A stretch of DNA of 64,000 bases from Patescibacteria group bacterium (GTDB taxonomy: Bacteria; Patescibacteriota; Patescibacteriia; UM-FILTER-42-10): NCBI GenBank assembly GCA_041666845.1, contig JBAYGC010000005.1, positions 584 to 64,583 of the forward strand, given 5' to 3'. The translations under genes were made by a program, and so were the position numbers. Of the stretch, positions 19,077-52,952 are shown piece after piece. The notes beneath the pieces were generated by a model. It searched no databases. It saw only the letters and a list, made by a program, of their open reading frames with translations, and was not told where the DNA came from. The first letter of the stretch is position 1. Every line of letters starts with the position of its first letter.

Positions 19077-19230
19077 GTCAGGTTTCATGGTTCATTGAAA
19101 TATCACTGCGTATATTGCCGTGGCGTCCAGATTAGAAAGAAGATCAGTCTAATTTGACCGCTCCGGCAATGTTGCCAAGCATGACATCCTAATGTCCAGT
19201 ATGGATTCCAAAGCCATGAAGGAGATTTCC

Positions 19231-19803
19231 ATGAAGAAGTCGTACATGACTCAGGACGACATCTACGTTGCCCAGGCGTGGAAGAGTCTGGCGAAGAAGC
19301 TGTTTCCTTGCCAGATCGTCGTGACGCTGGTCATGGTGACGCTGACCTACATCGCCCGGCGCTTCATCAATCACCACTATTTCGATCATGTGGTGACGGA
19401 TGCTGTCGCTGGCAACATCCCCAACGTGGTGATCGCGCTCGTAGCGTTCATCTTCGCCGGTGTGTTCGCGGTGGCTGTCGCGACCAACATCGCGTTCAGG
19501 AACGCACCGATTCGTACGATCACGCTCGTTCTGCTCACGTTCCTGGTACCTGCTGTGATCGGCGCCTTCTCCAGCTTCTGCTCGCACATCTATCTCCGGC
19601 CGGCGGATATCGTGTATGATTTCATTCCGGCGGTTCTGCTCATCGGGGTCTGGTGGTACACCAGCAACGCGCTCGATGAGGCCAGCGGATCGAACTTCGG
19701 TCAGAGCAAGGTCGCGAAAAGGATTCGAAACAGGATCGAGTACGCCTGTATCGGACAGTTCGCGATCTTCATGATTCTGATGGCCTACGTCATCGGGATT
19801 TAA
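19231..19803 (+). CDS. Polytopic membrane protein (5-6 TM), compositionally foreign (GC ~58%)
   Basis: SD AAGGAG lies 6 nt upstream of ATG at 19231. The track ORF starts 13 codons earlier, without an SD. The sequence is hydrophobic throughout. The antisense 211-aa ORF was rejected as a high-GC artefact. Confidence 0.65.
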   Translation: MKKSYMTQDDIYVAQAWKSLAKKLFPCQIVVTLVMVTLTYIARRFINHHYFDHVVTDAVAGNIPNVVIALVAFIFAGVFAVAVATNIAFRNAPIRTITLVLLTFLVPAVIGAFSSFCSHIYLRPADIVYDFIPAVLLIGVWWYTSNALDEASGSNFGQSKVAKRIRNRIEYACIGQFAIFMILMAYVIGI

Positions 19804-19954
19804 CTGCCCTTTTGACCTGAGCAAGTCCTAAGAAGTGCTCACCCGCCAGGTAACTGACGGGTTTTTTCTTTGCCAAAAAATATTAACCGATAATCAAAAA
19901 CAAGCGCGGTCAAACCCGCGCCTGCATTTATATTTTTTACAAACAGTTATTTGA

Positions 19955-24258: not shown

Positions 24259-24560
24259 GGGGTTTTTATACTGTCATCAAAGTAATTACTGAATGTCACT
24301 TCGACCGTAGTGGACCCGCCTCGCGTCGACGAGTAGAAGCGAGTCGAGGCGGGGAAGTCTATAGATTTCTCGGCTTCGTCTTGCTTTGCGCGACTACGCT
24401 CGAAATGACACACAGGAGGGAAGTAATGGTTTCATACATAAGTATAACGCAAAAAGCTTTATAAAAAAAGTAGGCCCCCGGAGTAAATCATCATGCAGAA
24501 TTGCAGACGAAATACTCGCGGGGGCACAGGGGTGAAAGAGCGAAACGATGCTGGCGAACG

Positions 24561-25616
24561 CTAGCGGATGGTTTCCTTCACCAGGTCGATGAAGGTCTCC
24601 GCGCGCCGGCCGGTCGGAGTGGTGTTGCGAGCGCCACCCGAACCGTTGAGGATCGCGTTGATCCTCGTGTCATAGAACCAGAGGTCCTTCGCGTCACGGC
24701 CGTCGGTGCGGTAGGCACTCTCGGTCGCGATGATGACGTCGTACAGTCGGTTCAGGTTGATCCGCGGCTGGACCCGGTTGGAGGTCAGGATGACGATCCG
24801 CTTGGAACGACTGACTACGATGATCAGGTCGACCCGACCATCGTTGAGGAGGGCGCGGGGGACACGGGTGTCGTCGGTGTGGATCAACACACCGCGTTGA
24901 TCCCGACCACTGGACTTGAAGACGAACTTCGTCGTGTCCTTGTGGTCGAGGATGTCGATCGCCTTGTCCTTGGCCACCTCGTTGGCGGCCTTGCACTTGG
25001 CGAACACCTCGCGCCACCAACGAGCCTCGCGGAGGATCTCACTGTCGGTGGCGCCGGTGATCATCAGGTTACGGATGTAGCCTGCCATACACCAGGGGGA
25101 CTCGTGGTTGCCCAGATGCTGGACGAGCGTCTGGACGTCGGGATGCCGACGGTCCACGGGGACCTTCAGCTCCTTGCCGATGCTGTTGACGTAGGCGTCG
25201 ATCACGCGGAAGATCCGCGAGATGACGGTCATGGGGGCATACCCTTGCTTGTACATCTCCCGAAGGAGCCATACGAGCGAGTAGGGCAGACCCTTAAGTC
25301 CACCCGTCTCGTTGTTCTCGTTGCAGATCGCAACGAGCGGGATCAGGCGGTGACTGCGAACCTTCAGGGTCTCGGCGACGATCTCCGTCGCGGAACCCTT
25401 ACCGGCCACTTGGTACTTGTACGGACCGATGTCGATGATGAACATGCGGTCCCGCTGCCACTCGTCGATCTGGGACTGTTCCGGCTGGAACTCGCCCGAG
25501 AGCACGAGGTTGAGGTCTTCGAGCTTCGTGACCGTGAACCTGCAGTACAGGTACAGGGCGACGATCTTGTCGAACACCGGACGAGCGGGGATGACGACGC
25601 CAGTAAACCGCTTCAT
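24561..25616 (-). CDS. Divergent, probably catalytically inactive paralogue of the adjacent MYG1/UPF0160-like protein (GC ~60%)
   Basis: Collinear with 23170..24258 (PARP/FPRP N-terminus, FIIDIG vs LLIDMG, FYDTRINAILNGSGGARNTTPTGR vs YYDTTANSIQNGGIAPEGVTPTR). It lacks both His motifs (VFD for HPD, GPYKYQ for GGGKFDHH). Strong SD AAGGAG sits 6 nt upstream of ATG at 25616. The antisense 407-aa ORF was rejected. Confidence 0.7.
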   Translation of the reverse strand: MKRFTGVVIPARPVFDKIVALYLYCRFTVTKLEDLNLVLSGEFQPEQSQIDEWQRDRMFIIDIGPYKYQVAGKGSATEIVAETLKVRSHRLIPLVAICNENNETGGLKGLPYSLVWLLREMYKQGYAPMTVISRIFRVIDAYVNSIGKELKVPVDRRHPDVQTLVQHLGNHESPWCMAGYIRNLMITGATDSEILREARWWREVFAKCKAANEVAKDKAIDILDHKDTTKFVFKSSGRDQRGVLIHTDDTRVPRALLNDGRVDLIIVVSRSKRIVILTSNRVQPRINLNRLYDVIIATESAYRTDGRDAKDLWFYDTRINAILNGSGGARNTTPTGRRAETFIDLVKETIR

Positions 25617-25865
25617 GGCTTTCTCCTTCGGCCAGAAGTAGGTGCACATGTGTCTCGGGAATCGAGACGGTCATGTTTTCAAGGAGCGGATCTCCTTGTT
25701 GGAGCCCGCGATCACTTACAGTGATCCTAGGCTCAAACAAAAAGCTTTCAGTGTACACATGGAGAGACTCTGAAAGCGCTGAATGTTGACATAGCTCTCT
25801 CCTCTGTCCTCCGTAGTGCCGCGAATGCGGTACGAAGGAGTGACAGAATTCTATGTTAACAGGCC

Positions 25866-33306: not shown

Positions 33307-33393
33307 GCCGAAGTGGTGAAACTGGTATACACGCAGCGTTCAGGACGCTGTGGGCGCAAGCCCGTGGGAGTTCAACTCTCCCCTTCGGCACCA
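33307..33393 (+). tRNA. tRNA-Leu (anticodon CAG), type II with long variable arm
   Basis: Manual fold: acceptor GCCGAAG/CTTCGGC. D-stem GTG/CAC. Anticodon stem CAGCG/CGCTG with loop TTCAGGA. Variable arm GGGCGCAAGCCC. T-arm GGGAG-TTCAACT-CTCCC. Discriminator A plus an encoded CCA. Confidence 0.85.
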
Positions 33394-33509: not shown

Positions 33510-35285
33510 ATGAATCCAAAAAACACAAAACATCGCTCCAGGCAGAATAACCGGATTAGAGTATACCGCTCAGATCCCGCTGAACATAAGCAGGAAAAGA
33601 AAGAAGACACAAGTAAAAGAAACGAGCCTACGCTTAAAGTAATTGTAATGGGTGGAAATGAAGAAGTGGGACGCAATATGACAATTCTGGAATACGGCAA
33701 AGATATTATTATCATCGATATGGGTTTGCAGTTTCCGGAAGAAGATATGCCGGGGATTGACTATATTATTCCGAACATTTCTTACCTCAAAGGAAAAGAA
33801 AAAAATGTTAAAGGAGTGATTATTACGCACGGTCACTATGACCATATCGGTGCGATCCCACATTTAATGAATAAAATCGGTAATCCGCCGATCTATGGCA
33901 GTCCCTTAACATTGGGAATTATCGCCAAGCGCCAGGAAGATTTCAAGCAGAGCGGTAAGCTGAATCTGAATTCAGTCAGTAACAAGGATATTCTCACCAT
34001 TGGCCGGTTTAAAATAGAATTTTTTGGTGTCAGCCATAATATCCCGGGGTCTTTCGGGGTGATCATTAATACTCCGGTCGGACCGATTGTCCACACGGGA
34101 GACTTCAAGCTGGACCTACAGCCGGTTGGTGATGTGGAGCCGGATATCGCCAAGATTGCCAAGTTGGGGGAAAAAAATGTACTAGCCTTGCTGTGTGACA
34201 GCACCAATGCAACTCAGCCGGGACATCAGTTTACAGAGACCGAGATTCAGGGGAACTTAGAAGATATTATCCGGCTGGCTCAGGGCAGAATTATTGTCGG
34301 GACATTCGCCTCGTTACTGATGAGGGTACAGCAGATTATCATGTTGGCGGAAAAATACAACCGTAAAGTTGTAATTGACGGTTACAGTATGAAGACTAAT
34401 ATTGAAATTGCGCAAAAGTTGGGTTATCTGAAAATCAACAAGGGCACTTTATTGCCGATGAGTGAGTTAGAAAATTACCCCAGCCGCAGAATTCTGGTGC
34501 TTTGTACCGGAGCGCAAGGAGAGGGTAGGGCGGTGTTGATGCGTATCGCTAATCGGGAACATAAGGTAATCAGAATCGAACCGGAAGATACGGTTGTATT
34601 CTCATCTTCAGTCGTACCAGGTAATGAAAGATCCGTCCAAAGATTGGTTGATACTTTGTATCGCGAAGGCGCGGAAGTAATCAATTATAAAATGATGGAC
34701 ATCCATGCGGGCGGTCACGCAAAACAGGAAGACCTTAAACTAATCATTAAGTTGATTAACCCGAGATATTTTGTTCCGATTGAAGGCAATCATTCCTTTT
34801 TGAAGGTGCACGCAAAAGTCGCGGAATCAATCGGGTTTGATCCGAAAAAGATTTTTGTCGCGGATAATGGACAAATAATGGAATTTACCAAAACAACCGG
34901 CCGCCTAACATCAAAAAAAGTTCCTTCTGATTATGTGTTTGTGGACGGATTGGGAGTTGGTGATGTTTCTAACGTAGTTTTGAGGGATCGCCGAATGATG
35001 TCCGACGACGGTATGCTGGTTGTAATCGCCACAATCGACGGAAAAACAGGTAATCTGATCGGTAATCCGGATATCATTTCCCGCGGGTTTGTGTATATGA
35101 AAGAGAATAAAAAACTGATTTCAGACACACGTGAGAAGGTCAAAAATCTGCTGAAAGACAAGCACCCGAATTCTTCAGCCAACGATGCGTATATAAAGAA
35201 CAAAATCAGGGATGATATCGGCCAGTTCTTGTTCAGCAAAACGCAAAGACGGCCGATGGTCTTGCCGGTAGTTATTGAAGTATAG
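33510..35285 (+). CDS. rnj: Ribonuclease J
   Basis: Metallo-beta-lactamase motif HGHYDHIG. beta-CASP and C-terminal domain. 591 aa. Confidence 0.9.
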   Translation: MNPKNTKHRSRQNNRIRVYRSDPAEHKQEKKEDTSKRNEPTLKVIVMGGNEEVGRNMTILEYGKDIIIIDMGLQFPEEDMPGIDYIIPNISYLKGKEKNVKGVIITHGHYDHIGAIPHLMNKIGNPPIYGSPLTLGIIAKRQEDFKQSGKLNLNSVSNKDILTIGRFKIEFFGVSHNIPGSFGVIINTPVGPIVHTGDFKLDLQPVGDVEPDIAKIAKLGEKNVLALLCDSTNATQPGHQFTETEIQGNLEDIIRLAQGRIIVGTFASLLMRVQQIIMLAEKYNRKVVIDGYSMKTNIEIAQKLGYLKINKGTLLPMSELENYPSRRILVLCTGAQGEGRAVLMRIANREHKVIRIEPEDTVVFSSSVVPGNERSVQRLVDTLYREGAEVINYKMMDIHAGGHAKQEDLKLIIKLINPRYFVPIEGNHSFLKVHAKVAESIGFDPKKIFVADNGQIMEFTKTTGRLTSKKVPSDYVFVDGLGVGDVSNVVLRDRRMMSDDGMLVVIATIDGKTGNLIGNPDIISRGFVYMKENKKLISDTREKVKNLLKDKHPNSSANDAYIKNKIRDDIGQFLFSKTQRRPMVLPVVIEV

Positions 35286-35297
35286 TTGGGTAGCAGG

Positions 35298-35480: not shown

Positions 35481-38400
35481 ATGAACAAAGCTATGCAAAG
35501 TCTCAAAAAGATCGCCGGGTTTGGCGTATTAGGTTTTTTTGCGATTACCTTGCTTCTCTCGGGAGCAAATATCGCTTTGGCAGAAGATATGCCAAGCCCC
35601 CCGGCCGACACACGTATAACCAGCTTCACAGTTACTCCGGTATCAGCGGCATTGGGGGCGACGACTACATATAACGTCAGTCTTACTTTGAACACGACCG
35701 TAGATGAAATACCGCTTTGGATCGGTGGAACTGGAGTACCGCTAGGAATAAGTTTTAATACTAGCGGTGGCTGTCCACCGGAAGTAGATTGGCGAGCCTG
35801 CAGAGTTGATTTATCGAATGCCTCAATCTCTGGTTTGGCAGGAAGTGTGACGGGAGATACAAATGAAGATAATGTGTATTTTATCGCCGACAATGCACTA
35901 GCAGCCGGCACAATTAATTTTTCTATTACGGGTGTAAAGAATCCGACTTATGGTGGTGGATTATTCAACGGAAAAATACAAATCCAGTCTCCGCAGGTTG
36001 CTGAGGATGAAATGTGGCCAGAGGGAACATCTCCAAACTTTATTTTAGGAGCCGTTTCTTTTTATGGTAAGGTTTTGACCCCCAGTGGAGATCCGATTAA
36101 TGGAGTTGGTGTAAATGTCCGGAATGAAGATTTTTCTTTTAATTATGGTACGGGCGCGTCTCCGGATGGAAGCTTTGCTTTACCGTCAACCGGAATGACG
36201 GCCGGCATGAAATATTATATAGAAATATGGTTGCCAAGCGGCACACAGGGGTATATTGCACCAAGTGCAATACAAAAAACATATACCGGAACTGTACAGA
36301 ATGTCGGCACGATAACTTTAGCCGTAGCTGCAAAAACAATTACGGGTACGGTTAGATATGATACTGGCGGGGCAGTTACCACGGCCAATATTAGGGTTTG
36401 GAATAATAGCGGATCAAGTGCTCAGGCGGATGTAAATGCCAGCGGGCAATATACATTAACCATCGGTGGCGGAAATTGGGAGATGATGGTTGATAAACAA
36501 TATAATGAGAACGGCCCAGTGGAAACGGATTGGGTATACAATGAGAATAAAAAGCAGATTTCGTTTGCTGATAACAATAGCAGTGAATCGCAAACAATGA
36601 ATTTTACTGTTCAGAAAACAAACTCGATAATCAAAGGTTGTGTGAAAACTCCGGATGGACACTTTCTACAGGGCGGATGGGTTGATATTAGAACCGGTGA
36701 CGGTCAAGGTAACGGGGCAGGTATCAATGGACAGAATGGTTGTTTTACCGCCAACGTCAATAATGGCAGTTATAAACTGCAGATCTTTCCGGATAACCAG
36801 AATCCTGATATGGCAAGGTTTTATCTTCCGGAGATGAAAGTAGACATCGCTGACGGACAGACTATTAATCTTGGTAATCTGGTTATGAAAGAAAAAACTT
36901 CCCAGATCAAAGGGAAGGTCATGCTGGAAGACGGTACGGGTGTAGGAGATATACGCGTCGGTTGTTGGCAGAATAATGCGTCGGGTTGGGGTGAATCGGT
37001 TTCCGCGTTTGATGGAACTTATACGCTCTGGCTACAACCGGGCCAATGGCAATGTCAGGCTCAGACCAGTACGGATTCGGATTATATTCCAATCAATGCC
37101 GGCGGGAAAACCAGTATGTATGAGCTAAAAGATAGCACAACCGTCTCGGGGGTAAACCACATTGTTAAATTGGCGGATGCCACGTTAGTTGTTAAAACTG
37201 TCGGTGAAGACGGCAAGGCAATCACCGGCAATGCTTATGGTTGGGCTTATGCTCGCGTAAAAGGGGCAGGCTTTGAGAAAGGATCAGAATTCGGCGGCAA
37301 TCTTGACCGGGGAACGGCTACAATCAAACTGATCGGTGGTAGTACATTTATTGTGGGTGCTTATATGCCTGCTGATCAGGGAGGATATTTGCTCGAAAAA
37401 GAAGTTGAGATAACCGTGCCGAAAAATTCTTCAAAAGAGACAACCTTAACTTTAGTTTTACCGGATGCTGAAATATTTGGATTTTTGAAAGATCAGGATG
37501 GAAAAGTGGTAAAGGGGGTTGAAGCGGAAATATACGCTAATATTGCGGAGAATACGGGTCCGGGCAGTAATCCGGGTGCTTTTACCAGAGTTAATCCTGA
37601 AGATGGAAGTTATAGTCTAAAGGTGCGTGGTGGTAATAAATATGTATTAGGATATTGGTTCAATATGAATGATGAATTTGTCCAAACTCATCCGGACTTT
37701 ACCCCGTTTACTGTACCAGTGGGTGGAAAAGTTCCAAAAATCATTACCGCTTTTCGTGCCAATGCGTCTATTGATGCTATGTTGCTTGATCCGGATGGAA
37801 AGAGTATTGATTTTGGATTCGTATGGTGTTCCAACCAGGTCGCCTTAAAAGATAAAGTCAAAGGTGATTTCGAAGGAGGTAAAGTAATTGAAGCCGGTGG
37901 GGATGTAATAGGCGGTAAGGCACATATTCCATTAATTTTCGGTGAATACGAATGCGGAGCAGGTATGAAATCCGGGGACAGTACCTATATGCCTCCGGAG
38001 AATAAGGTAGTTACAGTAAATTCCGGTGAGTCACAGAAAATTACATTACAATTCCGTGAAGCTGACGCAACTTTATCCGGTTCGGTAAAGCTTGAAGATG
38101 GCAGTGATGTACCATATGGTTGGTGTCATGCCTGGCAGAATGAAGGCGGTTTTTCCGGTGCTGAAGCATTCGACGGGAAAGCCAGTATTCCACTGACGAT
38201 CGGAACATGGTACGTGGGATGTGATTCAAAGATTTCGGGTGATGATAAATTTTATCGGTCTGAAGAGACAAGAGTGGTTGTATCTGAAAAAGGTGAGCTA
38301 AGTAAAAACTTTGTCCTGGCGGAAGCGGCTTTCAATCTACCGGAAGGTCTGACTGAAGTTTTCGATTCCACTATCCAGAAGGTAATTAATTTGCCGGATG

Positions 38401-39854
38401 GCACATCATTGAACATACCAGCAAACGCGCTAGCAACCGAAGGGAATGTAACGCTCATTGCTTCTCCGAATGTAAATGTGTTCCAGACTTCCGATACCAA
38501 GATTCCATTTTATGCCTGGGATTTTGAAGCATTGGACGCAAGTTCTCAGCTTATTTCGGAATTCAGCAGCAATGTAACAATTTCTATTCCTTACGATCCG
38601 TTAGTTCTTGCGGAAATGGGAATTGATGAAAATAATCTGGTGGCCAAGTATTATGATGATACGGCCGGTGCCTGGAAGCTGCCTACCGGTGTTACTGTTG
38701 ATACGGAGGGTAATATTATAGTTGTTCAGGTCAATCATTTTACCAACTACGCGATAACTACCAATGAAACAGGGGTGGGGAATCTCTCAGGCTCCAATGG
38801 ACCTTTCAATTTGGTGGCAACACCAATGTCAGAAGGCGGACCGCAGGTCGGAGTCTTTGATAAAGACGGCAATATGATCGCCACTTGGTTTGCCTATTCA
38901 TCCAGTTTAAGAATGGGTATGACTGTAGAAGTTGCGGATCTGGACGGCGACGGCAATCCGGAGATAATCACTATTCCTGGTGAGGGATTCGACGCTCAAA
39001 TACGCGTATTCGATCAGAACGGCAATGTCTTGAGCCAATTCATGGCATATCCGGCCGGATTCCGAAACGGCGTCAGCGTAACCGCATACGATCTGGACGG
39101 TGACGGCGAAATGGAAATTATCACTGTGCCGAAAGATGCAACTGCCGATGTAAAAGTATTTGATCGTAATGGAAATCTGCTGGCCCGATTCAATGCCTAT
39201 GGATCCAGGTTCATGATGGGTGCTGAAGTGGCAGCCATGGATCTGGACGGTGACGGCACCGGTGAAATAGTAACTTATCCGACTACCGGTTCAGGACAAA
39301 TTCGTGTGTTCGACAAAGACGGCAATGCGTTGTCGCAATTCAACACTTACGGGAATGGTTATCGCAATGGTGTACGTGTAACTCTTTCCGATTTGAACGG
39401 TGACGGTACAGTTGAAATTATCACATCACCTAAAAATGCCGCAGCGCACGTAAAGGTATTCAATAAAGACGGCGGATTGTTAACCCAATTTATGGGTTAT
39501 GCTTCGACCTTTAGAGGTGGAGTGAAAACATATACCGGTGATGTTGACGGCAATGGAATTAATGAAATCGTATTACTGCCTGATACCAATGGTTCCGCTC
39601 AAGCCAGGGTTTTTGACAAGGACGGCAACCTGCTTTCCCAATTCTTCGCCTATCCTTCAGCCATCAGAGGATCGTTCTCTGCGGCTGTGGGAGATCTGGA
39701 CGGCGACGGAGTGGCGGAAATCAGTTTCGGACCGGGTACCGGACTGGGACCGCAAGTGCGTGTGTTTGATAAGGACGGCAATGCGCTGTCACAGTTCTTC
39801 TCACTGCATTCCGGGTACCGTGGTGGGATCAATCTGTCATTAATCAACCAATAA
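35481..39854 (+). CDS. Large secreted surface protein: signal peptide, Ig/carboxypeptidase-regulatory-like beta-sandwich repeats, C-terminal FG-GAP beta-propeller repeats
   Basis: 1457 aa with an N-terminal signal/TM. The C-terminal ~520 aa carry about 10 repeats of ~47 aa with the DLDGDG/DVDGNG Ca-binding motif (VFDKDGN...F.AY...R.G..V...DLDGDG..EII). Confidence 0.8.
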   Translation: MNKAMQSLKKIAGFGVLGFFAITLLLSGANIALAEDMPSPPADTRITSFTVTPVSAALGATTTYNVSLTLNTTVDEIPLWIGGTGVPLGISFNTSGGCPPEVDWRACRVDLSNASISGLAGSVTGDTNEDNVYFIADNALAAGTINFSITGVKNPTYGGGLFNGKIQIQSPQVAEDEMWPEGTSPNFILGAVSFYGKVLTPSGDPINGVGVNVRNEDFSFNYGTGASPDGSFALPSTGMTAGMKYYIEIWLPSGTQGYIAPSAIQKTYTGTVQNVGTITLAVAAKTITGTVRYDTGGAVTTANIRVWNNSGSSAQADVNASGQYTLTIGGGNWEMMVDKQYNENGPVETDWVYNENKKQISFADNNSSESQTMNFTVQKTNSIIKGCVKTPDGHFLQGGWVDIRTGDGQGNGAGINGQNGCFTANVNNGSYKLQIFPDNQNPDMARFYLPEMKVDIADGQTINLGNLVMKEKTSQIKGKVMLEDGTGVGDIRVGCWQNNASGWGESVSAFDGTYTLWLQPGQWQCQAQTSTDSDYIPINAGGKTSMYELKDSTTVSGVNHIVKLADATLVVKTVGEDGKAITGNAYGWAYARVKGAGFEKGSEFGGNLDRGTATIKLIGGSTFIVGAYMPADQGGYLLEKEVEITVPKNSSKETTLTLVLPDAEIFGFLKDQDGKVVKGVEAEIYANIAENTGPGSNPGAFTRVNPEDGSYSLKVRGGNKYVLGYWFNMNDEFVQTHPDFTPFTVPVGGKVPKIITAFRANASIDAMLLDPDGKSIDFGFVWCSNQVALKDKVKGDFEGGKVIEAGGDVIGGKAHIPLIFGEYECGAGMKSGDSTYMPPENKVVTVNSGESQKITLQFREADATLSGSVKLEDGSDVPYGWCHAWQNEGGFSGAEAFDGKASIPLTIGTWYVGCDSKISGDDKFYRSEETRVVVSEKGELSKNFVLAEAAFNLPEGLTEVFDSTIQKVINLPDGTSLNIPANALATEGNVTLIASPNVNVFQTSDTKIPFYAWDFEALDASSQLISEFSSNVTISIPYDPLVLAEMGIDENNLVAKYYDDTAGAWKLPTGVTVDTEGNIIVVQVNHFTNYAITTNETGVGNLSGSNGPFNLVATPMSEGGPQVGVFDKDGNMIATWFAYSSSLRMGMTVEVADLDGDGNPEIITIPGEGFDAQIRVFDQNGNVLSQFMAYPAGFRNGVSVTAYDLDGDGEMEIITVPKDATADVKVFDRNGNLLARFNAYGSRFMMGAEVAAMDLDGDGTGEIVTYPTTGSGQIRVFDKDGNALSQFNTYGNGYRNGVRVTLSDLNGDGTVEIITSPKNAAAHVKVFNKDGGLLTQFMGYASTFRGGVKTYTGDVDGNGINEIVLLPDTNGSAQARVFDKDGNLLSQFFAYPSAIRGSFSAAVGDLDGDGVAEISFGPGTGLGPQVRVFDKDGNALSQFFSLHSGYRGGINLSLINQ

Positions 39855-39893: not shown

Positions 39894-39925
39894 TAAAAAC
39901 GCCGCTTGTCCAGCGGGGTTTTTAT
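39894..39925 (+). terminator. Intrinsic terminator after the large surface protein gene
   Basis: CGCCGCTTGTCCAGCGGGG followed by TTTTTATT. Confidence 0.65.
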
Positions 39926-39930
39926 TATAT

Positions 39931-39968
39931 AAAAAAAGTGACCTGGCAGATTTGAAGTCTCTGCCAGG
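39931..39968 (-). terminator. Intrinsic terminator for the minus-strand gene 39997..40497
   Basis: CCTGGCAG-ATTTGAAGTCTC-TGCCAGG, preceded on the + strand by AAAAAAA (a T-run on the minus strand). Confidence 0.7.
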
Positions 39969-39996
39969 CCCACGAAACCAACCCACGATGAAGTGG

Positions 39997-40497
39997 TTAT
40001 TTCCCAAACAGCTTCTTGCGAAGCTCGTAGAAATTGACCACGATCGTGTAGAAAAGAACGTCGGCGAGCACCTTGCCCACCAGCACGCCGAGTAGCATGC
40101 CGAGCATCCCATCCATCATGATTGACTGAGAAGCCAGCATCAATGATGGCCGGATGACTGCGCTGTCAGCGAACTCTGCTGGTCCGTATTCCCAGACCAG
40201 ATTCCAGAAGGTGATCCAGGCAATCCGCCAAGCTGAGGTGTTCTCCCGCCGGTGGAGACGAATCTCCCGGACAATGGCGATGCCGTAGAAACCGACGTTC
40301 TCGCCAACCGTTCCGGCGTAGGAGATGATGATGGGGTTCTTGGTGAAAATCTGAGCAATTATGGCGCCCAGAATGGCTGTGGCCGTCCCGAGGATTTCCT
40401 GCGGAAGATACCGCCGGATCCATTCAGTAATCTTCTGCTTTGCCTTCAGAAGAAACCGTTTGGTGTTCTCGGTCAGCTTGTGCCTTAGTTGTGGCAC
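39997..40497 (-). CDS. Small 4-TM membrane protein, compositionally foreign (GC ~54%)
   Basis: GTG start with a GGGGA SD. Has its own TTGACA-17-TACAAT promoter and its own terminator. Unrelated to the flanking trpS and surface-protein genes. Confidence 0.65.
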   Translation of the reverse strand: MPQLRHKLTENTKRFLLKAKQKITEWIRRYLPQEILGTATAILGAIIAQIFTKNPIIISYAGTVGENVGFYGIAIVREIRLHRRENTSAWRIAWITFWNLVWEYGPAEFADSAVIRPSLMLASQSIMMDGMLGMLLGVLVGKVLADVLFYTIVVNFYELRKKLFGK

Positions 40498-40562
40498 TTT
40501 TTTCCCCTTAGGAAGGAGCTGTCCTATTGTTAAAAAGGGGTTCTACCCTATATTAACCGGAC

Positions 40563-40591
40563 ATTGTATCAGATATTTATGCAAATGTCAA
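40563..40591 (-). promoter_or_regulatory. Consensus-like promoter TTGACA-17-TACAAT on minus strand
   Basis: The reverse complement reads TTGACAtttgcataaatatctgaTACAAT. It lies ~70 nt upstream of the GTG start at 40497. Confidence 0.6.
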
Positions 40592-40693
40592 TGCTAGTGG
40601 AGATAAGATAAAATAGGTATGGTTTAGATTGGGAATGATAATTCTAATTAGTGTATGTCGATTTTTTAAAATATATATGTTAAACTATTATAT

Positions 40694-41686
40694 ATGAAAG
40701 AAAAGAAATACATTTTCAGCGGTATCCAGCCGTCCGGGGCTATTCATCTGGGCAACTATTTCGGCGCGATCCGGCAGTGGGTAGAACTGCAAAAGACCTA
40801 CACCGGTATTTTCAGTATTGTTGACTATCACGCAATAACGGTAAATTACGATCCGCACAAACTCCAACGCAGGATCTTAGAAGCGGCGGCGGATTATCTG
40901 GCGGCGGGGATTGATCCGAAAAAAAGCATGATCTTTGTCCAGTCGGATGTTCCGGAACATGTTGAGCTTGCGTGGTTATTCAATACAATTCTTCCGGTAT
41001 CTGAATTGCGTCGGATGACCCAGTACAAAGAAAAGTCCGGACGACAGCAGTCAGCCAGCGCCGGTTTGTTAAACTATCCGATTCTGATGGCGGCGGATAT
41101 CTTACTGTACAAAGCAATCGGTGTTCCCGTAGGTGAAGATCAGATACAACATGTGGAATTAACCCGGACAATTGCCAGAAATTTCAACCGGAAATTCGGC
41201 AAAGTGTTTGTTGAACCAAGTGTGATATTATCTCGCGGTTCTCGCATTATGTCGCTGGCTGATCCTTTGAAAAAAATGAGCAAGAGCCTGGGCGAGAAGC
41301 ATTATGTCGCGCTTTCGGACAGTCCGAGTGTCATGCGCAAGAAGTTTATGAGTGCGGTGACTGATACCGGCGTGACGATGTATGAGAAGAAAAAAAGCCC
41401 GGGTGTTTATAATCTGTTTGAATTGCTAGAATTGATGACGGACGCGCAGACCGTGGCGCGCTTTGAGAAGAAATATCAAACCGGTAATCTTTCATACAAA
41501 GAATTAAAGGAAACACTGGGTAATGCTGCGGTTGATATGTTCGCTTCATTCCAGGAGAAAAGGACAAAACTATTATCCGACGAAAAGAAGCTCAGAAAAA
41601 TTCTGGCGGACGGTGCAAGTAGAGCACGAAAAATCGCCCAAAAGACCCTCCAGGAAGCGAAGCAGAAAATGGGAATTGCAAAATAA
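40694..41686 (+). CDS. trpS: Tryptophan--tRNA ligase
   Basis: HIGH-type motif (GIQPSGAIHLGNYFGA) and KMSKS (KMSKSLG). Confidence 0.95.
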   Translation: MKEKKYIFSGIQPSGAIHLGNYFGAIRQWVELQKTYTGIFSIVDYHAITVNYDPHKLQRRILEAAADYLAAGIDPKKSMIFVQSDVPEHVELAWLFNTILPVSELRRMTQYKEKSGRQQSASAGLLNYPILMAADILLYKAIGVPVGEDQIQHVELTRTIARNFNRKFGKVFVEPSVILSRGSRIMSLADPLKKMSKSLGEKHYVALSDSPSVMRKKFMSAVTDTGVTMYEKKKSPGVYNLFELLELMTDAQTVARFEKKYQTGNLSYKELKETLGNAAVDMFASFQEKRTKLLSDEKKLRKILADGASRARKIAQKTLQEAKQKMGIAK

Positions 41687-42546: not shown

Positions 42547-42551
42547 ATAAT

Positions 42552-44096
42552 TTATTCAATTAAACTTATTCCTGTCATTTCCTTTGGTTTTTCTATGCCC
42601 AGAATTGCAAGTGCGGTGGGGGCAACATCCTTTAGTGCGCCAGAATGTAATTTGCATTTTTTTAGTTCTGGCTTTTCAGAAATAATTATTAATGGCACGT
42701 CCGCGTCTGTGTGATGGGTATGTTCCATGTTCTTGTGCTGATCATAAGTTATCTCAGCGTTACCATGGTCAGCTGTAATAATTACAGTTGCGCCTATTGC
42801 CTGAGCTTTTTTTAGCAGTTTTGCCAAGTACTTGTCAATAGTGGCTACTCCTTTAATTACAGCTTCTTTGATTGCAGTATGGCCAAGAATGTCCGGATTA
42901 GCATAGTTAATAACAACCAAATCATATATATGCTCGTCTAATTTTTGAAGAACCGTTTCAGTTATTTCAGCAACTTTCATTTCCGGTTTAAGATCATATG
43001 TAGCTATTTTATCAGAGGGGATCAATATCCTATCCTCACCGTCAAAAGGATCTTCATGCATTCCGTTAAATATTTTTGTGCAGTAAACCCATTTTTCTGT
43101 TTCGGAAATCCTTAGTTGTTTTAAACCTGCCTTACTCACTACTTCTCCCAGGCAGTTTTTAATTCTTTCTCGGGCAATGGCGAACGGAACTGGAATTCGG
43201 TCGTAATAGTCAGTAAGAGCGACATACTGAATATTCAGTTTGTTTGGCCGGCTGAATTCCTTAAAATTATCTTCTACAAACGCCTGAGTAATTTCAATCG
43301 CACGATCAACTCTAAAATTGAAATTAAACACGGCATCTCCATTCTTAATTACGGCCAAAGGTTTTCCATTCTTGGTAATGATGGTCGGTTTAATAAATTC
43401 GTCCGACTCGCCACGCCGATATGCATCGGCCACTGCCTGATCTACAGAATCAGCCTGGTAATCTCCTTTTCCTTCCGTGAGTGCCCGGTATGCTTTTTCT
43501 ACTCTTTCCCAGCGATGATCCCGGTCCATTGCCCAATAACGACCCATGACCGACGCAATTTCGCCCACTTTTAATTCTTTCATGACTGTTTTGAGCCGAT
43601 CCAGGTATATTTCAACTTCTTTTGGTGGTGTGTCCCGCCCGTCAGCAAAAATATGAATGTATACTTTGTCCAGTTTTTCTTTAGCAGCTAACTCAAGAAT
43701 CATATGGCAGGTCAAATCATAGCTATGTACTCCTTCATTCGAGAGCATGCCAATCAGATGAAGTGCGCCGTTGTCTTGCTTAATTTTTTTAATAGCATTA
43801 ACATACGCAGGCTCTTTCAGGAGCTTGCCACTTAGAATGGCTTGTTTAATCTGCATCTGGGGAAGTAGGGCATTTCTTCCCGCTCCGATAATCAAGTGTC
43901 CAATCTCTGATGCTCCCTGATGCCCATGTTCCAGCCCGATTCCTTCTCCACCCGCCTTTATTCTGGTGTGAGGCCTGGTTTTCTCCAGATTATCCATAGT
44001 TGGCGTGGGTGCCAAAAATATTGGATTATGTTCATCCTTCTTTCCGATTCCCCACCCATCAAGAATAATGATGATTAGAGGTCCCTTATTTTTCAT
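42552..44096 (-). CDS. gpmI: 2,3-bisphosphoglycerate-independent phosphoglycerate mutase
   Basis: LIIIILDGWGIG N-terminus, a metal-binding ADHGNAE motif. 514 aa. Confidence 0.93.
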   Translation of the reverse strand: MKNKGPLIIIILDGWGIGKKDEHNPIFLAPTPTMDNLEKTRPHTRIKAGGEGIGLEHGHQGASEIGHLIIGAGRNALLPQMQIKQAILSGKLLKEPAYVNAIKKIKQDNGALHLIGMLSNEGVHSYDLTCHMILELAAKEKLDKVYIHIFADGRDTPPKEVEIYLDRLKTVMKELKVGEIASVMGRYWAMDRDHRWERVEKAYRALTEGKGDYQADSVDQAVADAYRRGESDEFIKPTIITKNGKPLAVIKNGDAVFNFNFRVDRAIEITQAFVEDNFKEFSRPNKLNIQYVALTDYYDRIPVPFAIARERIKNCLGEVVSKAGLKQLRISETEKWVYCTKIFNGMHEDPFDGEDRILIPSDKIATYDLKPEMKVAEITETVLQKLDEHIYDLVVINYANPDILGHTAIKEAVIKGVATIDKYLAKLLKKAQAIGATVIITADHGNAEITYDQHKNMEHTHHTDADVPLIIISEKPELKKCKLHSGALKDVAPTALAILGIEKPKEMTGISLIE

Positions 44097-44113
44097 AAGC
44101 AGAGAGTAACCAA

Positions 44114-45601
44114 TTATACCCAGCCTAAACGTCCGGTTAAGCTCATAACTTCTTTTCGGTCTAATTTATCCTCAATTTCCGGGAACTGCTCCAGGAAATC
44201 GGCAACAACATTTTTCATCTCCAGTACCCGTTCTTTGGTATCTGCCTCAAAACGGACGGTAAGGTAAGGACTGGTATTGGATGCGCGAACAATCGCCCAA
44301 CTCTTATCATCAAAACTCATTCTCACGCCGTCGATTGTGACTGTCTTGTATAGTTTGGAAAAATGTTCCTGCACTTTTTTGATCACATCGAATTTTACTT
44401 CATCGGCGCAGGGTAGTTTGAGTTCAGTGGTCCGAACAGTAACCGGGAAATCTTTAAACAGAGCGGAAAATGGCTCATTGGAATCCGCGAGCAATTCCAA
44501 TATTCTGGCACCGGCATACATGCCGTCTTCGCTTCGGAACAGCTCTTTAACAAAATAGATATGTCCGGATACTTCACCGCCAAAAATAATGTCAGGATCT
44601 TTCCGGAACGTATCTTTGATCGGCGCGTGACCGGTAATATGCATTAGTGGAACCCCACCGAATTTTGGAATCAGTTCTTCCATCAGCCTGGTGCATTTGA
44701 CGTCATATAGGATTTTTTTACCCGGATCGGTTTTTAATGCTTCCCGGGCAAGCAGTAAAATCATCATGTCCGTATCAACATATTCGCCGTTTTCATCCAC
44801 AAACCCCACCCGGTCACCGTCCGCATCCAGACCAATCCCGCAGTCTGCTTTTGTTTCCACCACTTTTCTGCCTAACTCCTCCATATTGTTCGGCATTTCC
44901 GGGTCCGGCACGTGATTTGGAAAGGTCGCGTCAGGCGTAGTGTAGAGTTCCACTACTTCACAACCCAGCTTGCGGAAAAATTGCGGTGCGAAAAGTCCGG
45001 CACTGCCGTTACCGCAATCAATAACTACTTTCAATCTACGTTTAATATTCAATTTTTTTGTCATGAATTCTTCGTAGTCCGGATATACTTCTTTCTTTTT
45101 CAATTCACCCTTTTCCGCCTGAATGAAGTCCTCCTTTTCCACCATTTCTCTGACTACTTGTAATTCATCGCCATAAATTGGCAGCACACCCTTGCCGTTC
45201 ATTTTAAAACCATTATAAAAATACACGTTATGACTACCGGTAACATTGACGCCGCCGTCAAATTCGTAAAAGCCGTTGGCAAAATAAACCAAGGGTGTCA
45301 GCGCAATACCGACATCAGTGACATCACATCCGGTGGATAGAATGCCGTTAATGAAACCTTGGGTTAGTTCGTTGGAAAACGGACGCAATTCCTGTCCGAC
45401 CACAATGTTTTTGCCGTTATATTTTCTCTGGATGTATGTACCATAAGCTTTGCCCAGAGCCTCTGCTACATCGAGCGTGATATTAATCCCCGGGAAGGGA
45501 CCATACCATTTTTCAAACTCTGCGATTGCATCTTTTGAAAATTCTTTTCCCGCGATGCCGCGGATATCATATAAGCGGAAGATTGTTGGTGATACTTTCA
45601 T
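44114..45601 (-). CDS. Phosphoglucomutase/phosphomannomutase family protein (alpha-D-phosphohexomutase)
   Basis: Active-site TGSHN loop (VNVTGSHNV), a metal-binding GLDADGDR loop and a sugar-binding GEVSGH loop. Confidence 0.9.
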   Translation of the reverse strand: MKVSPTIFRLYDIRGIAGKEFSKDAIAEFEKWYGPFPGINITLDVAEALGKAYGTYIQRKYNGKNIVVGQELRPFSNELTQGFINGILSTGCDVTDVGIALTPLVYFANGFYEFDGGVNVTGSHNVYFYNGFKMNGKGVLPIYGDELQVVREMVEKEDFIQAEKGELKKKEVYPDYEEFMTKKLNIKRRLKVVIDCGNGSAGLFAPQFFRKLGCEVVELYTTPDATFPNHVPDPEMPNNMEELGRKVVETKADCGIGLDADGDRVGFVDENGEYVDTDMMILLLAREALKTDPGKKILYDVKCTRLMEELIPKFGGVPLMHITGHAPIKDTFRKDPDIIFGGEVSGHIYFVKELFRSEDGMYAGARILELLADSNEPFSALFKDFPVTVRTTELKLPCADEVKFDVIKKVQEHFSKLYKTVTIDGVRMSFDDKSWAIVRASNTSPYLTVRFEADTKERVLEMKNVVADFLEQFPEIEDKLDRKEVMSLTGRLGWV

Positions 45602-52131: not shown

Positions 52132-52487
52132 TGCTTTTCCCCTCCGGTTATCTGAAACACAAAAACGACTGAAGAACGACTTGCTAATCCTAGTCCCGAC
52201 TATTTATTTTGTCAATAAAAAACACCTGAGCTGTTATGCAGAGGTGGCTTTTTTTGTTTTTTTAAGATCGTCCTTTTTGATATTATGAGTCAGGTATTGA
52301 CACTTGCGATTAACTGTGCTATATTTCCGCGTTCAATACTCTTAGATTAATGAGTCAATTACGGTTTTCTCTGCGCGTATTTTACTTAGAAATACTTACA
52401 GAGAAGACCATAACAAATGTGGTTTTCCTCTTTGCCGTGTTGGCGAGGAGAAAGCTTTCTCGAAAGAGGAGGCGAAGGAGCATTGTG

Positions 52488-52952
52488 ATGATCAACACGT
52501 TGCGTTCCGTGGCTCACCTGCAGCGGGAGATCGGCGACGATCTCTTCGAGGCGCTGGTAAGTTCGGATCACACGGAAGCGGTCCGGAGATTCGCCAAAAA
52601 GTTGGCGAAGATCTTGCCGACCAAGATCACGGTCGGCGGCAGAACATACGAGATTCTCCCCATCCTTCGGGAGGGGGAAGAGAGCGTCAAGGGCGACATT
52701 GTGGTCGCCCGTGCCAGGGAAATGAATGCCCATCTCGGCATAGACGACGGCGAGCATCTACTGGCCCACCGAGACGAGCTTCCCGCCGTCTTGCGCGGTC
52801 AGGGGATCGTCTTCGTCTTCACCGACTGGTGTCACCCCGAGGACCCTAAGTCTGTCGCCCGTGTCTATCATATCGGCGGCGACTGGACTCTGGGCTGGGA
52901 CGGGCTCCACTACGACTTCAGTGACGATACTCGGGTGCTCCGCCGCAAGTAA
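52488..52952 (+). CDS. Hypothetical 154-aa protein in high-GC island
   Basis: SD AAGGAG 7 nt upstream of ATG. The track ORF starts earlier but has no SD there. GC ~60%. Confidence 0.5.
   Translation: MINTLRSVAHLQREIGDDLFEALVSSDHTEAVRRFAKKLAKILPTKITVGGRTYEILPILREGEESVKGDIVVARAREMNAHLGIDDGEHLLAHRDELPAVLRGQGIVFVFTDWCHPEDPKSVARVYHIGGDWTLGWDGLHYDFSDDTRVLRRK

What the first reader, a model, noticed from the sequence alone, without database searches (positions are those of the whole stretch)
39931..40600. Self-contained GC-rich 4-TM gene with consensus promoter, possible SD-sequestering stem and its own terminator
A 54%-GC island lies between the surface protein and trpS. It has a TTGACA-17-TACAAT promoter. 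In the 5' UTR, CCCCTTTTT can pair with AGGGGAAAAA, which contains the SD, and so may gate translation. A dedicated terminator follows. The protein is small, 4-TM and positively charged at the N-terminus. It could be a holin-like or immunity-type membrane protein.
Basis: partly seen in the sequence, partly recalled or inferred. Interest (0 to 1): 0.5.

Follow-up and report, generated by a model that had tools for sequence, protein, structure and literature searches.

The report
Orphan-family four-helix membrane protein gene

Summary
The gene is real: minus strand 40497..39997, 166 aa, GTG start. It has a near-consensus extended -10 promoter (11/12) and its own terminator, which shows compensatory changes in relatives. 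Its GC is 54% and GC3 0.71, against 43% for the window.

The possible 6-bp version costs +4 kcal/mol, stays under 5% in the ensemble, and is broken in the ortholog. Folding instead pairs the SD with the adjacent CUCCUUCC tract and puts the GUG start in a GUGCC/GGCAC stem. The 59-nt 5' UTR is 91.5% identical to a syntenic relative; the CDS is 66% identical and other intergenic DNA 60-65%.

The protein has four long helices (AlphaFold2 pLDDT 94.6) built from an internal two-helix repeat. Its family has 936 cluster representatives across bacteria and archaea. It has no curated Pfam or NCBIfam match and no PDB, phage, plasmid or defence match, so holin or immunity is not supported.

In 38 of 77 genome loci, almost all Actinomycetota, the gene sits directly upstream of, or is fused to, a lysine/ornithine decarboxylase. 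My best guess, at modest confidence, is a small oligomeric transporter of cationic amines, similar in architecture to PACE pumps. Interest is moderate to low.

The parts
40563..40591 (-). Sigma-70-type promoter: -35 TTGACA (40591-40586), 17-nt spacer with TG (40571-40570), -10 TACAAT (40568-40563). The start of transcription is inferred near G40557.
   Evidence: 11 of 12 matches, TG present. Conserved in L002 as TTGACA-17-TATATT. 86% identity to L002. The transcription start is inferred, not measured.
40498..40557 (-). 5' UTR of about 59 nt. It is the most conserved stretch in the neighbourhood.
   Evidence: 91.5% identical to the syntenic ortholog, against 66% for the CDS, 79% for trpS and 60-65% for other intergenic DNA. 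Binomial P = 2.5e-6 against a 0.65 background. No Rfam match at E <= 10. The sequence is unique in the window.
40529..40557 (-). Predicted 5'-terminal hairpin (GUUAA..GGGU-AGA-ACCC..UUAAC). As DNA it is an imperfect palindrome at about +1 to +30.
   Evidence: -7.6 kcal/mol in the window and -10.5 in L002, where the U-to-A change adds a pair. Whether it acts as an mRNA stabiliser or as an operator is inference.
40502..40518 (-). Anti-SD tract CUCCUUCC (40518-40511), a 3-nt loop, then the Shine-Dalgarno AAGGGG (40509-40504). Together they form a local hairpin that occludes the SD.
   Evidence: In the ensemble the SD guanines pair only with this tract. Hairpin energies are -5.3, -6.2 and -5.4 kcal/mol in the window, L002 and L084. 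It appears in the consensus fold but without covariation.
40480..40497 (-). Start-codon hairpin GUGCC-ACAACUAA-GGCAC. The GUG start (40497-40495) lies in the stem.
   Evidence: Pairing probability about 1.0 from 10 to 55 C. Energy -8.5 kcal/mol. The stem is invariant in three relatives, including at synonymous positions. The same palindrome scores as a + strand terminator.
39997..40497 (-). CDS of 166 aa: a four-helix membrane protein built from an internal repeat of two helices. Conserved motifs are RRYxPxE, GENxGFY, EFGPAExxDSxxxRP and GKxxADxxFY.
   Evidence: invariant R29, E103, R116, F149. (repeat, P = 1.3e-4). (pLDDT 94.6). (936 family representatives).
39931..39970 (-). Dedicated intrinsic terminator: an 11-bp stem (39970-39960 with 39950-39940), a 9-nt loop and a T7 run (39937-39931).
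   Evidence: Sequence read. Consensus fold with 2 compensatory pairs over three relatives.
39902..39916 (.). Second, bidirectional terminator hairpin (CCGCTGGACAAGCGG). It is shared with the convergent FG-GAP surface-protein gene.
   Evidence: One search lists it on both strands.

Best explanation
This is a monocistronic chromosomal gene in a Patescibacteria-like genome. It encodes a small inner-membrane protein. The N- and C-termini are predicted to be cytoplasmic. Four helices are formed by a duplicated two-helix unit. Conserved Arg/Tyr/Glu motifs lie at the cytoplasmic helix ends, and E66, K142 and D146 lie inside helices 2 and 4.

It belongs to a widespread family that no curated database describes. 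The most likely function is a small, oligomeric (probably dimeric) secondary transporter or facilitator for a cationic nitrogen compound, such as a diamine or a basic amino acid. This parallels the architecture and logic of PACE and SMR pumps.

Transcription starts from a near-consensus extended -10 promoter and ends at a dedicated terminator. Translation is probably held low, or regulated, by a strongly conserved leader. A 5'-terminal hairpin is followed by a hairpin pairing the SD with an adjacent anti-SD tract, and then by a hairpin containing the GUG start.

Shown here: the gene, promoter match, terminator covariation, leader conservation, family breadth, internal repeat, and the decarboxylase linkage in Actinomycetota. 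Inferred: transport, substrate class, oligomeric state, topology, and any regulatory role of the leader.
For: Gene anatomy.

Family:
- 936 representatives at E <= 1e-3 and 686 at E <= 1e-10.
- Members in CPR, archaea, Alphaproteobacteria, Gemmatimonadota, Myxococcota, Bacteroidota, Acidobacteriota and Actinomycetota.
- Invariant or near-invariant charged residues.
- Internal repeat aligning RYxPAE with EFGPAE and GENxGFY with ADxxFY, P = 1.3e-4.
- Confident four-helix model.

Link to amines:
- 38 of 77 loci with enough downstream sequence carry a same-strand decarboxylase that starts less than 400 nt after the match.
- In Microbacterium trichothecenolyticum the two ORFs overlap by 4 nt.
- That decarboxylase is closest to solved lysine/ornithine decarboxylases: 2plj at E = 1.5e-86, then 5gjm.
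- Fusions exist. P0088 is the domain plus a decarboxylase. Klenkia soli P0008 is two tandem copies plus a decarboxylase, which suggests a parallel dimer as the working unit.
- Fusion order places the soluble enzymes in the cytoplasm, which fits the positive-inside prediction.
- Two Bacteroidota loci have an APC amino-acid permease directly upstream.
- PACE pumps are likewise four helices in two tandem pairs, with conserved acidic and aromatic motifs near the cytoplasmic helix ends. They work as dimers, and cadaverine is reported as a native AceI substrate (PMC6195760, PMC9045395).

Leader.
Against: - The decarboxylase link is confined to Actinomycetota plus one Acidobacteriota locus. It is absent in this window and in all CPR or archaeal loci, so it is transferred by homology only.
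- Some Actinomycetota loci lack the decarboxylase.
- Other fusions (FHA, BTAD-NB-ARC-TPR, CPT-like kinase) fit a generic membrane anchor or sensor module equally well.
- Helix 3 is only weakly hydrophobic.
- The leader structures show no covariation. Only three sequences are available, one of them partial, and the folding z-scores are weak at -1.4 to -2.0.
Confidence: 0.38

Rival explanations
1. The four-helix domain does not transport anything. It is a membrane anchor, scaffold or sensor module that tethers or regulates cytoplasmic enzymes. The partners would be a decarboxylase in Actinomycetota, a kinase in Woesearchaeota and FHA or SARP-type regulators elsewhere. In this genome a stand-alone copy would serve an unknown partner.
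For: Fusion partners are diverse: Orn/DAP/Arg decarboxylase, CPT-like P-loop kinase, FHA-FHA and BTAD-NB-ARC-TPR. Neighbours outside Actinomycetota are heterogeneous. There is no similarity to any transporter fold.
Against: Charged residues within and at the ends of the helices are invariant across phyla (R29, E34, E66, E103, E108, D111, R116, K142, D146). That is unusual for a passive anchor. Most of the 936 representatives are stand-alone proteins of about 140-170 aa. The tandem-duplicated form (P0008) resembles a fused transporter dimer.
Confidence: 0.25
2. It is a distant GtrA-like protein, that is, a polyprenyl-phosphate-sugar translocase or the membrane domain of a glycosyltransferase system. 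It would act in cell-surface glycan synthesis, next to the large surface protein.
For: UniRef names two Hymenobacter members 'GtrA family' or 'GtrA-like domain-containing'. GtrA proteins are also small four-helix proteins. The gene is convergent with a 1457-aa FG-GAP surface protein.
Against: Those same proteins, and the window protein, have no PF04138 hit at E <= 10. hhalign of the family profile gives probability 0.1% against E. coli YfdG and 0.06% against a 120-sequence enterobacterial GtrA alignment. No glycosyltransferase is adjacent here. In relative L084 the surface-protein gene is absent and the four-helix gene remains.
Confidence: 0.06
3. One reading: a holin-like or immunity-type membrane protein on a GC-rich, horizontally acquired islet. 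Translation would be gated by a CCCCUUUUU:AGGGGAAAAA stem.
For: GC3 of 0.71 is the joint highest among window ORFs. The protein is small, has four helices and has a basic N-terminus.
Against: No PHROG, PADLOC, phage, plasmid or BFVD match. There is no endolysin, toxin or bacteriocin neighbour. The locus is syntenic in a relative about 25% diverged, and the high GC3 persists there (0.73) and in another relative (0.79), so the acquisition is not recent. The proposed stem is a parallel complement, and its 6-bp antiparallel remnant is disfavoured and not conserved.
Confidence: 0.03
4. The leader is conserved at the DNA level, not the RNA level. The imperfect palindrome GTTAATATAGGGT-N-ACCCCTTTTTAAC at about +1 to +30 would be an operator for a dimeric repressor. 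The SD and start-codon hairpins would be incidental.
For: Conservation covers loops as well as stems, and there is no covariation. The palindrome lies just downstream of the inferred transcription start, a typical repressor position. RNA folding z-scores are weak.
Against: No regulator gene is adjacent. High conservation continues through the SD and the first six codons, beyond the palindrome. The anti-SD/SD complementarity is kept in three relatives despite sequence changes on both sides.
Confidence: 0.3

Closest known systems
PACE family efflux pumps (AceI, PA2880; two tandem BTP domains, Pfam PF05232)
   Same: Size of about 150 aa. Four helices that arose by duplication of a two-helix unit. 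Conservation concentrated in paired motifs near the cytoplasmic helix ends, with Arg plus an acidic residue in helices 1 and 3 and aromatic plus acidic residues in helices 2 and 4. PACE pumps function as dimers and have a link to short-chain diamines. Here the diamine link comes through the co-encoded or fused lysine/ornithine decarboxylase (PMC6195760, PMC9045395).
   Different: No PF05232 hit. The motifs differ: RRYxPxE / GENxGFY / EFGPAExxDSxxxRP / GKxxADxxFY here, against RxxHAxxFE / WNxxYNxxFD in PACE. The taxonomic range is CPR, archaea, Actinomycetota and others, rather than mainly Proteobacteria. Transport has not been shown.
SMR family (EmrE, Gdx, MdtJI; Pfam PF00893)
   Same: A small four-helix membrane protein likely to need oligomerisation. 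Carboxylates within the helices. Some SMR genes sit behind structured regulatory leaders, such as guanidine riboswitches.
   Different: No Pfam or structural match. It is longer, with about 30-residue cytoplasmic helical extensions. It has an internal repeat that SMR proteins lack. No Rfam riboswitch lies in the leader.
Decarboxylase-coupled amino acid/amine antiporter operons (cadBA, speF-potE, adiA-adiC)
   Same: In Actinomycetota the family gene and a lysine/ornithine-type decarboxylase form a tight operon or a single polypeptide. The layout matches membrane-carrier-plus-decarboxylase modules, as I know them from the literature.
   Different: Those antiporters are 12-helix APC proteins. No decarboxylase is present in this window.
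GtrA family (Pfam PF04138)
   Same: Small four-helix proteins. Two family members carry this name in UniRef.
   Different: Pfam and profile-profile tests are negative. There is no glycosyltransferase context.
SD-occluding leaders (RNA thermometers such as ROSE and fourU; translational operators)
   Same: The SD and start codon are predicted to lie in local hairpins, and the leader is strongly conserved.
   Different: No Rfam match. The predicted occlusion does not respond to temperature between 10 and 55 C. There is no covariation.

Membership tests
PACE / BTP domain (PF05232) | Match to the BTP domain profile, in two tandem copies | tested here: not met
   No PF05232 hit for the window protein at E <= 10. 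It is not among the 25 families most often matched by the 103 members at E <= 1.
PACE / BTP domain (PF05232) | Four helices formed by duplication of a two-helix unit | tested here: met
   hhalign of the N-terminal half against the C-terminal half: 62 columns, P = 1.3e-4. Four helices in the AlphaFold2 model.
PACE / BTP domain (PF05232) | Motifs RxxHAxxFE (helices 1 and 3) and WNxxYNxxFD / YtxxYNWxYD (helices 2 and 4), as given in PMC6195760 | tested here: not met
   The family consensus carries RRYxPxE, GENxGFY, EFGPAExxDSxxxRP and GKxxADxxFY instead.
PACE / BTP domain (PF05232) | Proton-coupled efflux of biocides or diamines | not testable with these tools
   This needs transport assays.
SMR (PF00893) | Profile match and a conserved Glu in helix 1 of a protein of about 110 aa | tested here: not met
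GtrA (PF04138) | Profile match to the GtrA/DPMS membrane domain | tested here: not met
   No hit at E <= 10, even for the members that UniRef names GtrA. hhalign probability is 0.1% and 0.06%.
DUF456 (PF04306) | Score above the gathering threshold of 29.4 bits | tested here: not met
   23.1 bits, covering residues 37-101 only. Only 1 of 103 family members hits it.
LysO lysine exporter (PF03956) | Homology to E. coli LysO | tested here: not met
   4 of 103 members give weak hits, best E = 0.0057. hhalign of the family against E. coli LysO gives probability 0.5%.
Phage holins | Membership in a phage protein family, or a lysis-cassette context | tested here: not met
   No PHROG hit. No tblastn hit in phages. 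No BFVD match at E <= 0.001. The neighbours are trpS and a surface protein.
Anti-phage defence or immunity proteins | Match to a defence-system component, or a plasmid or bacteriocin context | tested here: not met
   No PADLOC hit. No plasmid hit.
Known cis-regulatory RNA families (Rfam 15) | Covariance-model match in the 5' UTR | tested here: not met
   No match overlapping 40498-40557 on the minus strand at E <= 10.
RNA thermometer | SD occlusion that melts over the physiological temperature range | tested here: inconclusive
   The predicted probability that the SD is paired is flat: about 0.52 in the window and 0.9 to 0.72 in L002 between 10 and 55 C. This is in silico only.
Intrinsic terminator | GC-rich stem followed by a U-run, with the stem kept in relatives | tested here: met
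   11-bp stem plus T7. Two pairs carry compensatory changes across three sequences.

The most novel reading that the evidence does not exclude
The gene represents an undescribed, phylogenetically very broad family of miniature transporters. Each is a duplicated two-helix pair working as a dimer, and the family moves diamines or basic amino acids. It would be the counterpart of PACE pumps in Actinomycetota, CPR and DPANN. In this Patescibacteria lineage it would be controlled by a new, compact translational riboregulator of about 75 nt that sequesters both the SD and the start codon.
Probability: 0.2. Interest if true: 0.6.

Novelty: new variant of a known kind. Interest (0 to 1): 0.33.

Why it matters
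If the transporter reading holds, it gives a function to a protein family with hundreds of diverged cluster representatives and no curated description. It would also identify the missing membrane partner of actinobacterial lysine/ornithine decarboxylases, and it would add a candidate metabolite carrier to the very small transport repertoire of CPR bacteria and DPANN archaea. The leader is a small, testable example of strong purifying selection on a 5' UTR in an uncultivated lineage. If the reading does not hold, this is an ordinary conserved hypothetical membrane protein gene with good expression signals.

Tried and rejected
It is a parallel complement, costs +4 kcal/mol, stays under 5% in the ensemble, and is not conserved.
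- Known riboswitch or leader: no Rfam hit in the UTR.
- More leader copies: a metagenome scan with CCTAAGG-N5-10-GTGCCNNAACTAAGGCAC returned only the contig already held. The leader motifs are unique in the window and occur in only 2 of the 88 fetched loci, both cut from the same contig. A covariation test was therefore impossible.
- Curated protein families: Pfam, NCBIfam, PHROGs and PADLOC give nothing above threshold.
- PDB sequence profile search: nothing.
- LysO lead, from weak Pfam hits: rejected by hhalign.
- GtrA lead, from UniRef names: rejected by Pfam and hhalign. The last homology search returned only near-identical enterobacterial GtrA proteins, so the GtrA profile was shallow.
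- Conserved neighbours outside Actinomycetota: none. Upstream genes are an ABC ATPase, a DRL oxidoreductase, ProRS, a recombinase, an APC permease, a PKD protein and a methyltransferase.
- Naive ORF clustering in high-GC loci was confounded by spurious long ORFs.
- Recent horizontal transfer as the cause of the GC island: not favoured, because high GC3 persists in diverged orthologs.
- Literature search for the decarboxylase-linked membrane protein found nothing relevant.
Full report
**1. What is there**

The region 39931-40600 holds one gene on the minus strand, 40497..39997. It encodes 166 aa from a GTG start. It is divergent from trpS (40694-41686, + strand) and convergent with a 1457-aa FG-GAP/CarboxypepD_reg surface protein (35481-39854).

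The promoter scan finds TTGACA, 17 nt, TACAAT. That is 11 of 12 matches, with a TG extended -10, at 40591-40563.

Downstream of the stop codon lies an 11-bp GC-rich stem (39970-39940) with a T7 run. A second hairpin at 39916-39902 is bidirectional and shared with the surface-protein gene.

The CDS has GC 0.544 and GC3 0.711. The window GC is 0.434 and the mean ORF GC3 is 0.46, sd 0.096.

The protein has a +7 N-terminal segment and two strongly and two moderately hydrophobic segments. AlphaFold2 predicts four long helices: 2-51, 55-81, 89-126 and 130-164. Mean pLDDT is 86.6 with 8 sequences and 94.6 with 103. So the descriptive part of the finding is correct.

**2. The proposed SD-sequestering stem**

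CCCCTTTTT and AGGGGAAAAA are complementary only in parallel register. The reverse complement of CCCCTTTTT is AAAAAGGGG.

The only antiparallel remnant is CCCCUU:AAGGGG, 6 bp. Forcing it gives -22.6 kcal/mol, against an MFE of -26.6. In the partition function no SD base pairs with the distal C-run at more than 5%. In the syntenic ortholog the two sides have become CCCCUA and AAGGAG, which breaks the pairing.

What the folding does show in the window, in L002 and partly in L084 is three elements:
- a small hairpin pairing the SD with the anti-SD-like tract CUCCUUCC three nucleotides upstream (-5.3, -6.2 and -5.4 kcal/mol);
- a hairpin GUGCC-N8-GGCAC that holds the GUG start (-8.5 kcal/mol, pairing probability about 1.0).

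The thermodynamic signal is modest. z is +0.22 for the UTR alone and -1.4 to -2.0 with the first codons included. There is no covariation with only three sequences. The predicted occlusion is flat between 10 and 55 C.

**3. The leader is nevertheless under selection**

A Patescibacteria MAG contig (L002/L087, Ga0172379_10000601, the same organism as GCA_041664365.1) is syntenic with the window: FG-GAP protein, this gene, trpS, murI. Overall nucleotide identity is about 75%.

Identity by segment:

| Segment | Identity |
|---|---|
| 5' UTR | 91.5% (54 of 59) |
| Promoter | 86% |
| CDS | 66% |
| trpS | 79% |
| murI | 80% |
| Other intergenic stretches | 60-65% |

Four-fold degenerate sites in identical residues are only 39% identical. 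The binomial probability of at least 54 of 59 at a 0.65 background is 2.5e-6.

A third relative (L084) keeps CTCTTCCCTAAGGGGGAAAAGTGCCGAAACTAAGGCAC at its contig end.

The leader has no Rfam match. It does not recur in the window or in the other fetched loci. A metagenome scan found no further copies.

The conservation could reflect RNA structure, a DNA operator (the 5' hairpin is an imperfect palindrome at about +1 to +30), or both.

The terminator does show covariation: 2 of its 11 pairs carry compensatory changes.

**4. The protein family**

The word-index search found only 7 relatives. An exhaustive profile search found 936 cluster representatives at E <= 1e-3 and 686 at E <= 1e-10.

A genome scan placed members in Patescibacteria/CPR, archaea, Alphaproteobacteria, Gemmatimonadota, Myxococcota, Bacteroidota, Acidobacteriota and many Actinomycetota.

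Across 103 members, R29, E103, R116 and F149 are invariant. Y30, E34, Y71, F104, G105, E108, D111, P117, G141, K142, D146, Y150 and E158 are at least 90% conserved.

The two halves align to each other, RYxPAE with EFGPAE and GENxGFY with ADxxFY. hhalign gives P = 1.3e-4 over 62 columns. The protein is therefore a duplicated two-helix unit.

No curated description exists:
- Pfam gives only a sub-threshold DUF456 hit, 23.1 against 29.4 bits, seen in 1 of 103 members.
- NCBIfam, PHROGs and PADLOC give nothing.
- The PDB sequence profile search gives nothing.
- There is no tblastn hit in phage or plasmid collections.
- Two leads were tested and rejected: LysO (hhalign probability 0.5%) and GtrA. 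UniRef gives the GtrA name to two Hymenobacter members, but Pfam has no PF04138 hit for them and hhalign gives 0.1% and 0.06%.

**5. Context and fusions**

Of 77 loci with at least 1.5 kb downstream, 38 carry a same-strand Orn/DAP/Arg-type decarboxylase that starts within 400 nt.

In Microbacterium trichothecenolyticum the two ORFs overlap by 4 nt. That decarboxylase scores below the lysA cutoff. It is closest to solved lysine/ornithine decarboxylases: 2plj at E = 1.5e-86, then 5gjm, then eukaryote-type ODCs.

The linked loci are all Actinomycetota of several families, with two exceptions. One is an Acidobacteriota locus. The other is labelled Planococcus but is syntenic with Microbacterium.

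Two decarboxylase fusion architectures exist. P0088 is the domain plus a decarboxylase. Klenkia soli P0008 is two tandem copies plus a decarboxylase.

Other fusions are a CPT-like kinase in Woesearchaeota (seen on 25 contigs), FHA-FHA, and BTAD-NB-ARC-TPR.

Outside Actinomycetota the neighbours are heterogeneous, although two Bacteroidota loci have an APC amino-acid permease directly upstream.

The window itself has no decarboxylase and no second family member.

**6. Mechanism proposed**

Shown: a tightly conserved small membrane protein with charged residues in and at the ends of its helices, an internal duplication, and a strong operon or fusion link to diamine-forming decarboxylases in one large phylum.

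Inferred:
- N-in/C-in topology, from the positive-inside rule and from the order of domains in the fusions.
- A dimer as the working unit, from the tandem-copy fusion.
- Transport of a cationic amine or basic amino acid.

The inference draws on two analogies. One is carrier-plus-decarboxylase modules such as cadBA and speF-potE, from my own knowledge. The other is PACE pumps, which have the same duplicated four-helix design, conserved motifs near the cytoplasmic helix ends and a dimeric state, with cadaverine reported as a native AceI substrate (PMC6195760, PMC9045395).

Expression would combine a strong promoter with a translation-initiation region buried in two hairpins. That suits a membrane protein needed at low or regulated levels. 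I put the transporter reading at roughly 0.35-0.4 and the anchor or sensor reading at about 0.25.

**7. Comparison and novelty**

The protein fails the membership tests for PACE, SMR, GtrA, DUF456, LysO, holins and defence proteins. It resembles PACE in architecture only. I therefore file it as a new variant of a known kind: small duplicated-helix-pair membrane proteins with an occluded translation start.

The holin or immunity idea is not supported.

The GC-richness is real. High GC3 persists in diverged orthologs, at 0.73 and 0.79, and trpS four-fold sites are also fairly GC-rich, at 0.51-0.60. Recent horizontal transfer is therefore not the favoured cause.

**8. Verdict**

This is a correct anatomical observation with one wrong detail, the stem, and an unsupported functional guess, holin or immunity. 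What remains is a conserved hypothetical membrane protein from a large unannotated family, with a suggestive diamine link elsewhere and an unusually conserved leader. Interest is moderate to low, at 0.33.

Noticed in passing
window 40480-40503 (+ strand): The start-codon palindrome GTGCC-N8-GGCAC is followed on the + strand by TTTTTT, and the scan scores it as a + strand terminator. It could stop antisense read-through coming from the surface-protein gene.
   Followed up: no
window 35481-39854; L084 582-1609: The 1457-aa FG-GAP/CarboxypepD_reg surface-protein gene is absent in relative L084. There the four-helix gene directly abuts DNA homologous to window 34260-35287. This is a presence/absence polymorphism.
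   Followed up: partly
window 42552-44096: This 514-aa ORF reads like a phosphoglycerate mutase, a judgement from its sequence only and not a test. It lies between murI and the PGM/PMM gene in the window but is missing at that position in L002/L087, where the alignment jumps from 42548 to 44114.
   Followed up: no
window 52350-52952 (+), 24501-25724 (+), 19189-19824 (-): Three other compositional outliers have no Pfam hit. Their values are GC3 0.71; GC 0.60 with first-position GC 0.83; and first-position GC 0.78. The last two may not be real genes.
   Followed up: partly
L001 4001-4612 and L002 3926-4447 (MAG GCA_041664365.1): The related MAG has two family members. The non-syntenic paralog (P0003, 65% identity) is closer to the window protein than the syntenic one (P0004, 57%), and it lacks the conserved leader. 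The syntenic gene is probably called 75 nt too short, because an in-frame GTG at 3926 matches the window's start.
   Followed up: partly
P0026, P0075, P0154 (family members elsewhere): The four-helix domain is also fused to a CPT-like P-loop kinase in Woesearchaeota (25 contigs), to two FHA domains, and to a BTAD-NB-ARC-TPR regulator.
   Followed up: partly
P0180, P0214 (Hymenobacter): UniRef labels these family members 'GtrA family' or 'GtrA-like domain-containing'. Neither Pfam nor profile-profile comparison supports that name.
   Followed up: yes
window 33307-33393 and 33510-35285: The only tRNA in the window (tRNA-Leu, anticodon CAG) lies just upstream of an RNase J gene. RNase J is relevant if the 5'-terminal hairpin of the leader protects the mRNA from 5'-end-dependent decay.
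   Followed up: no
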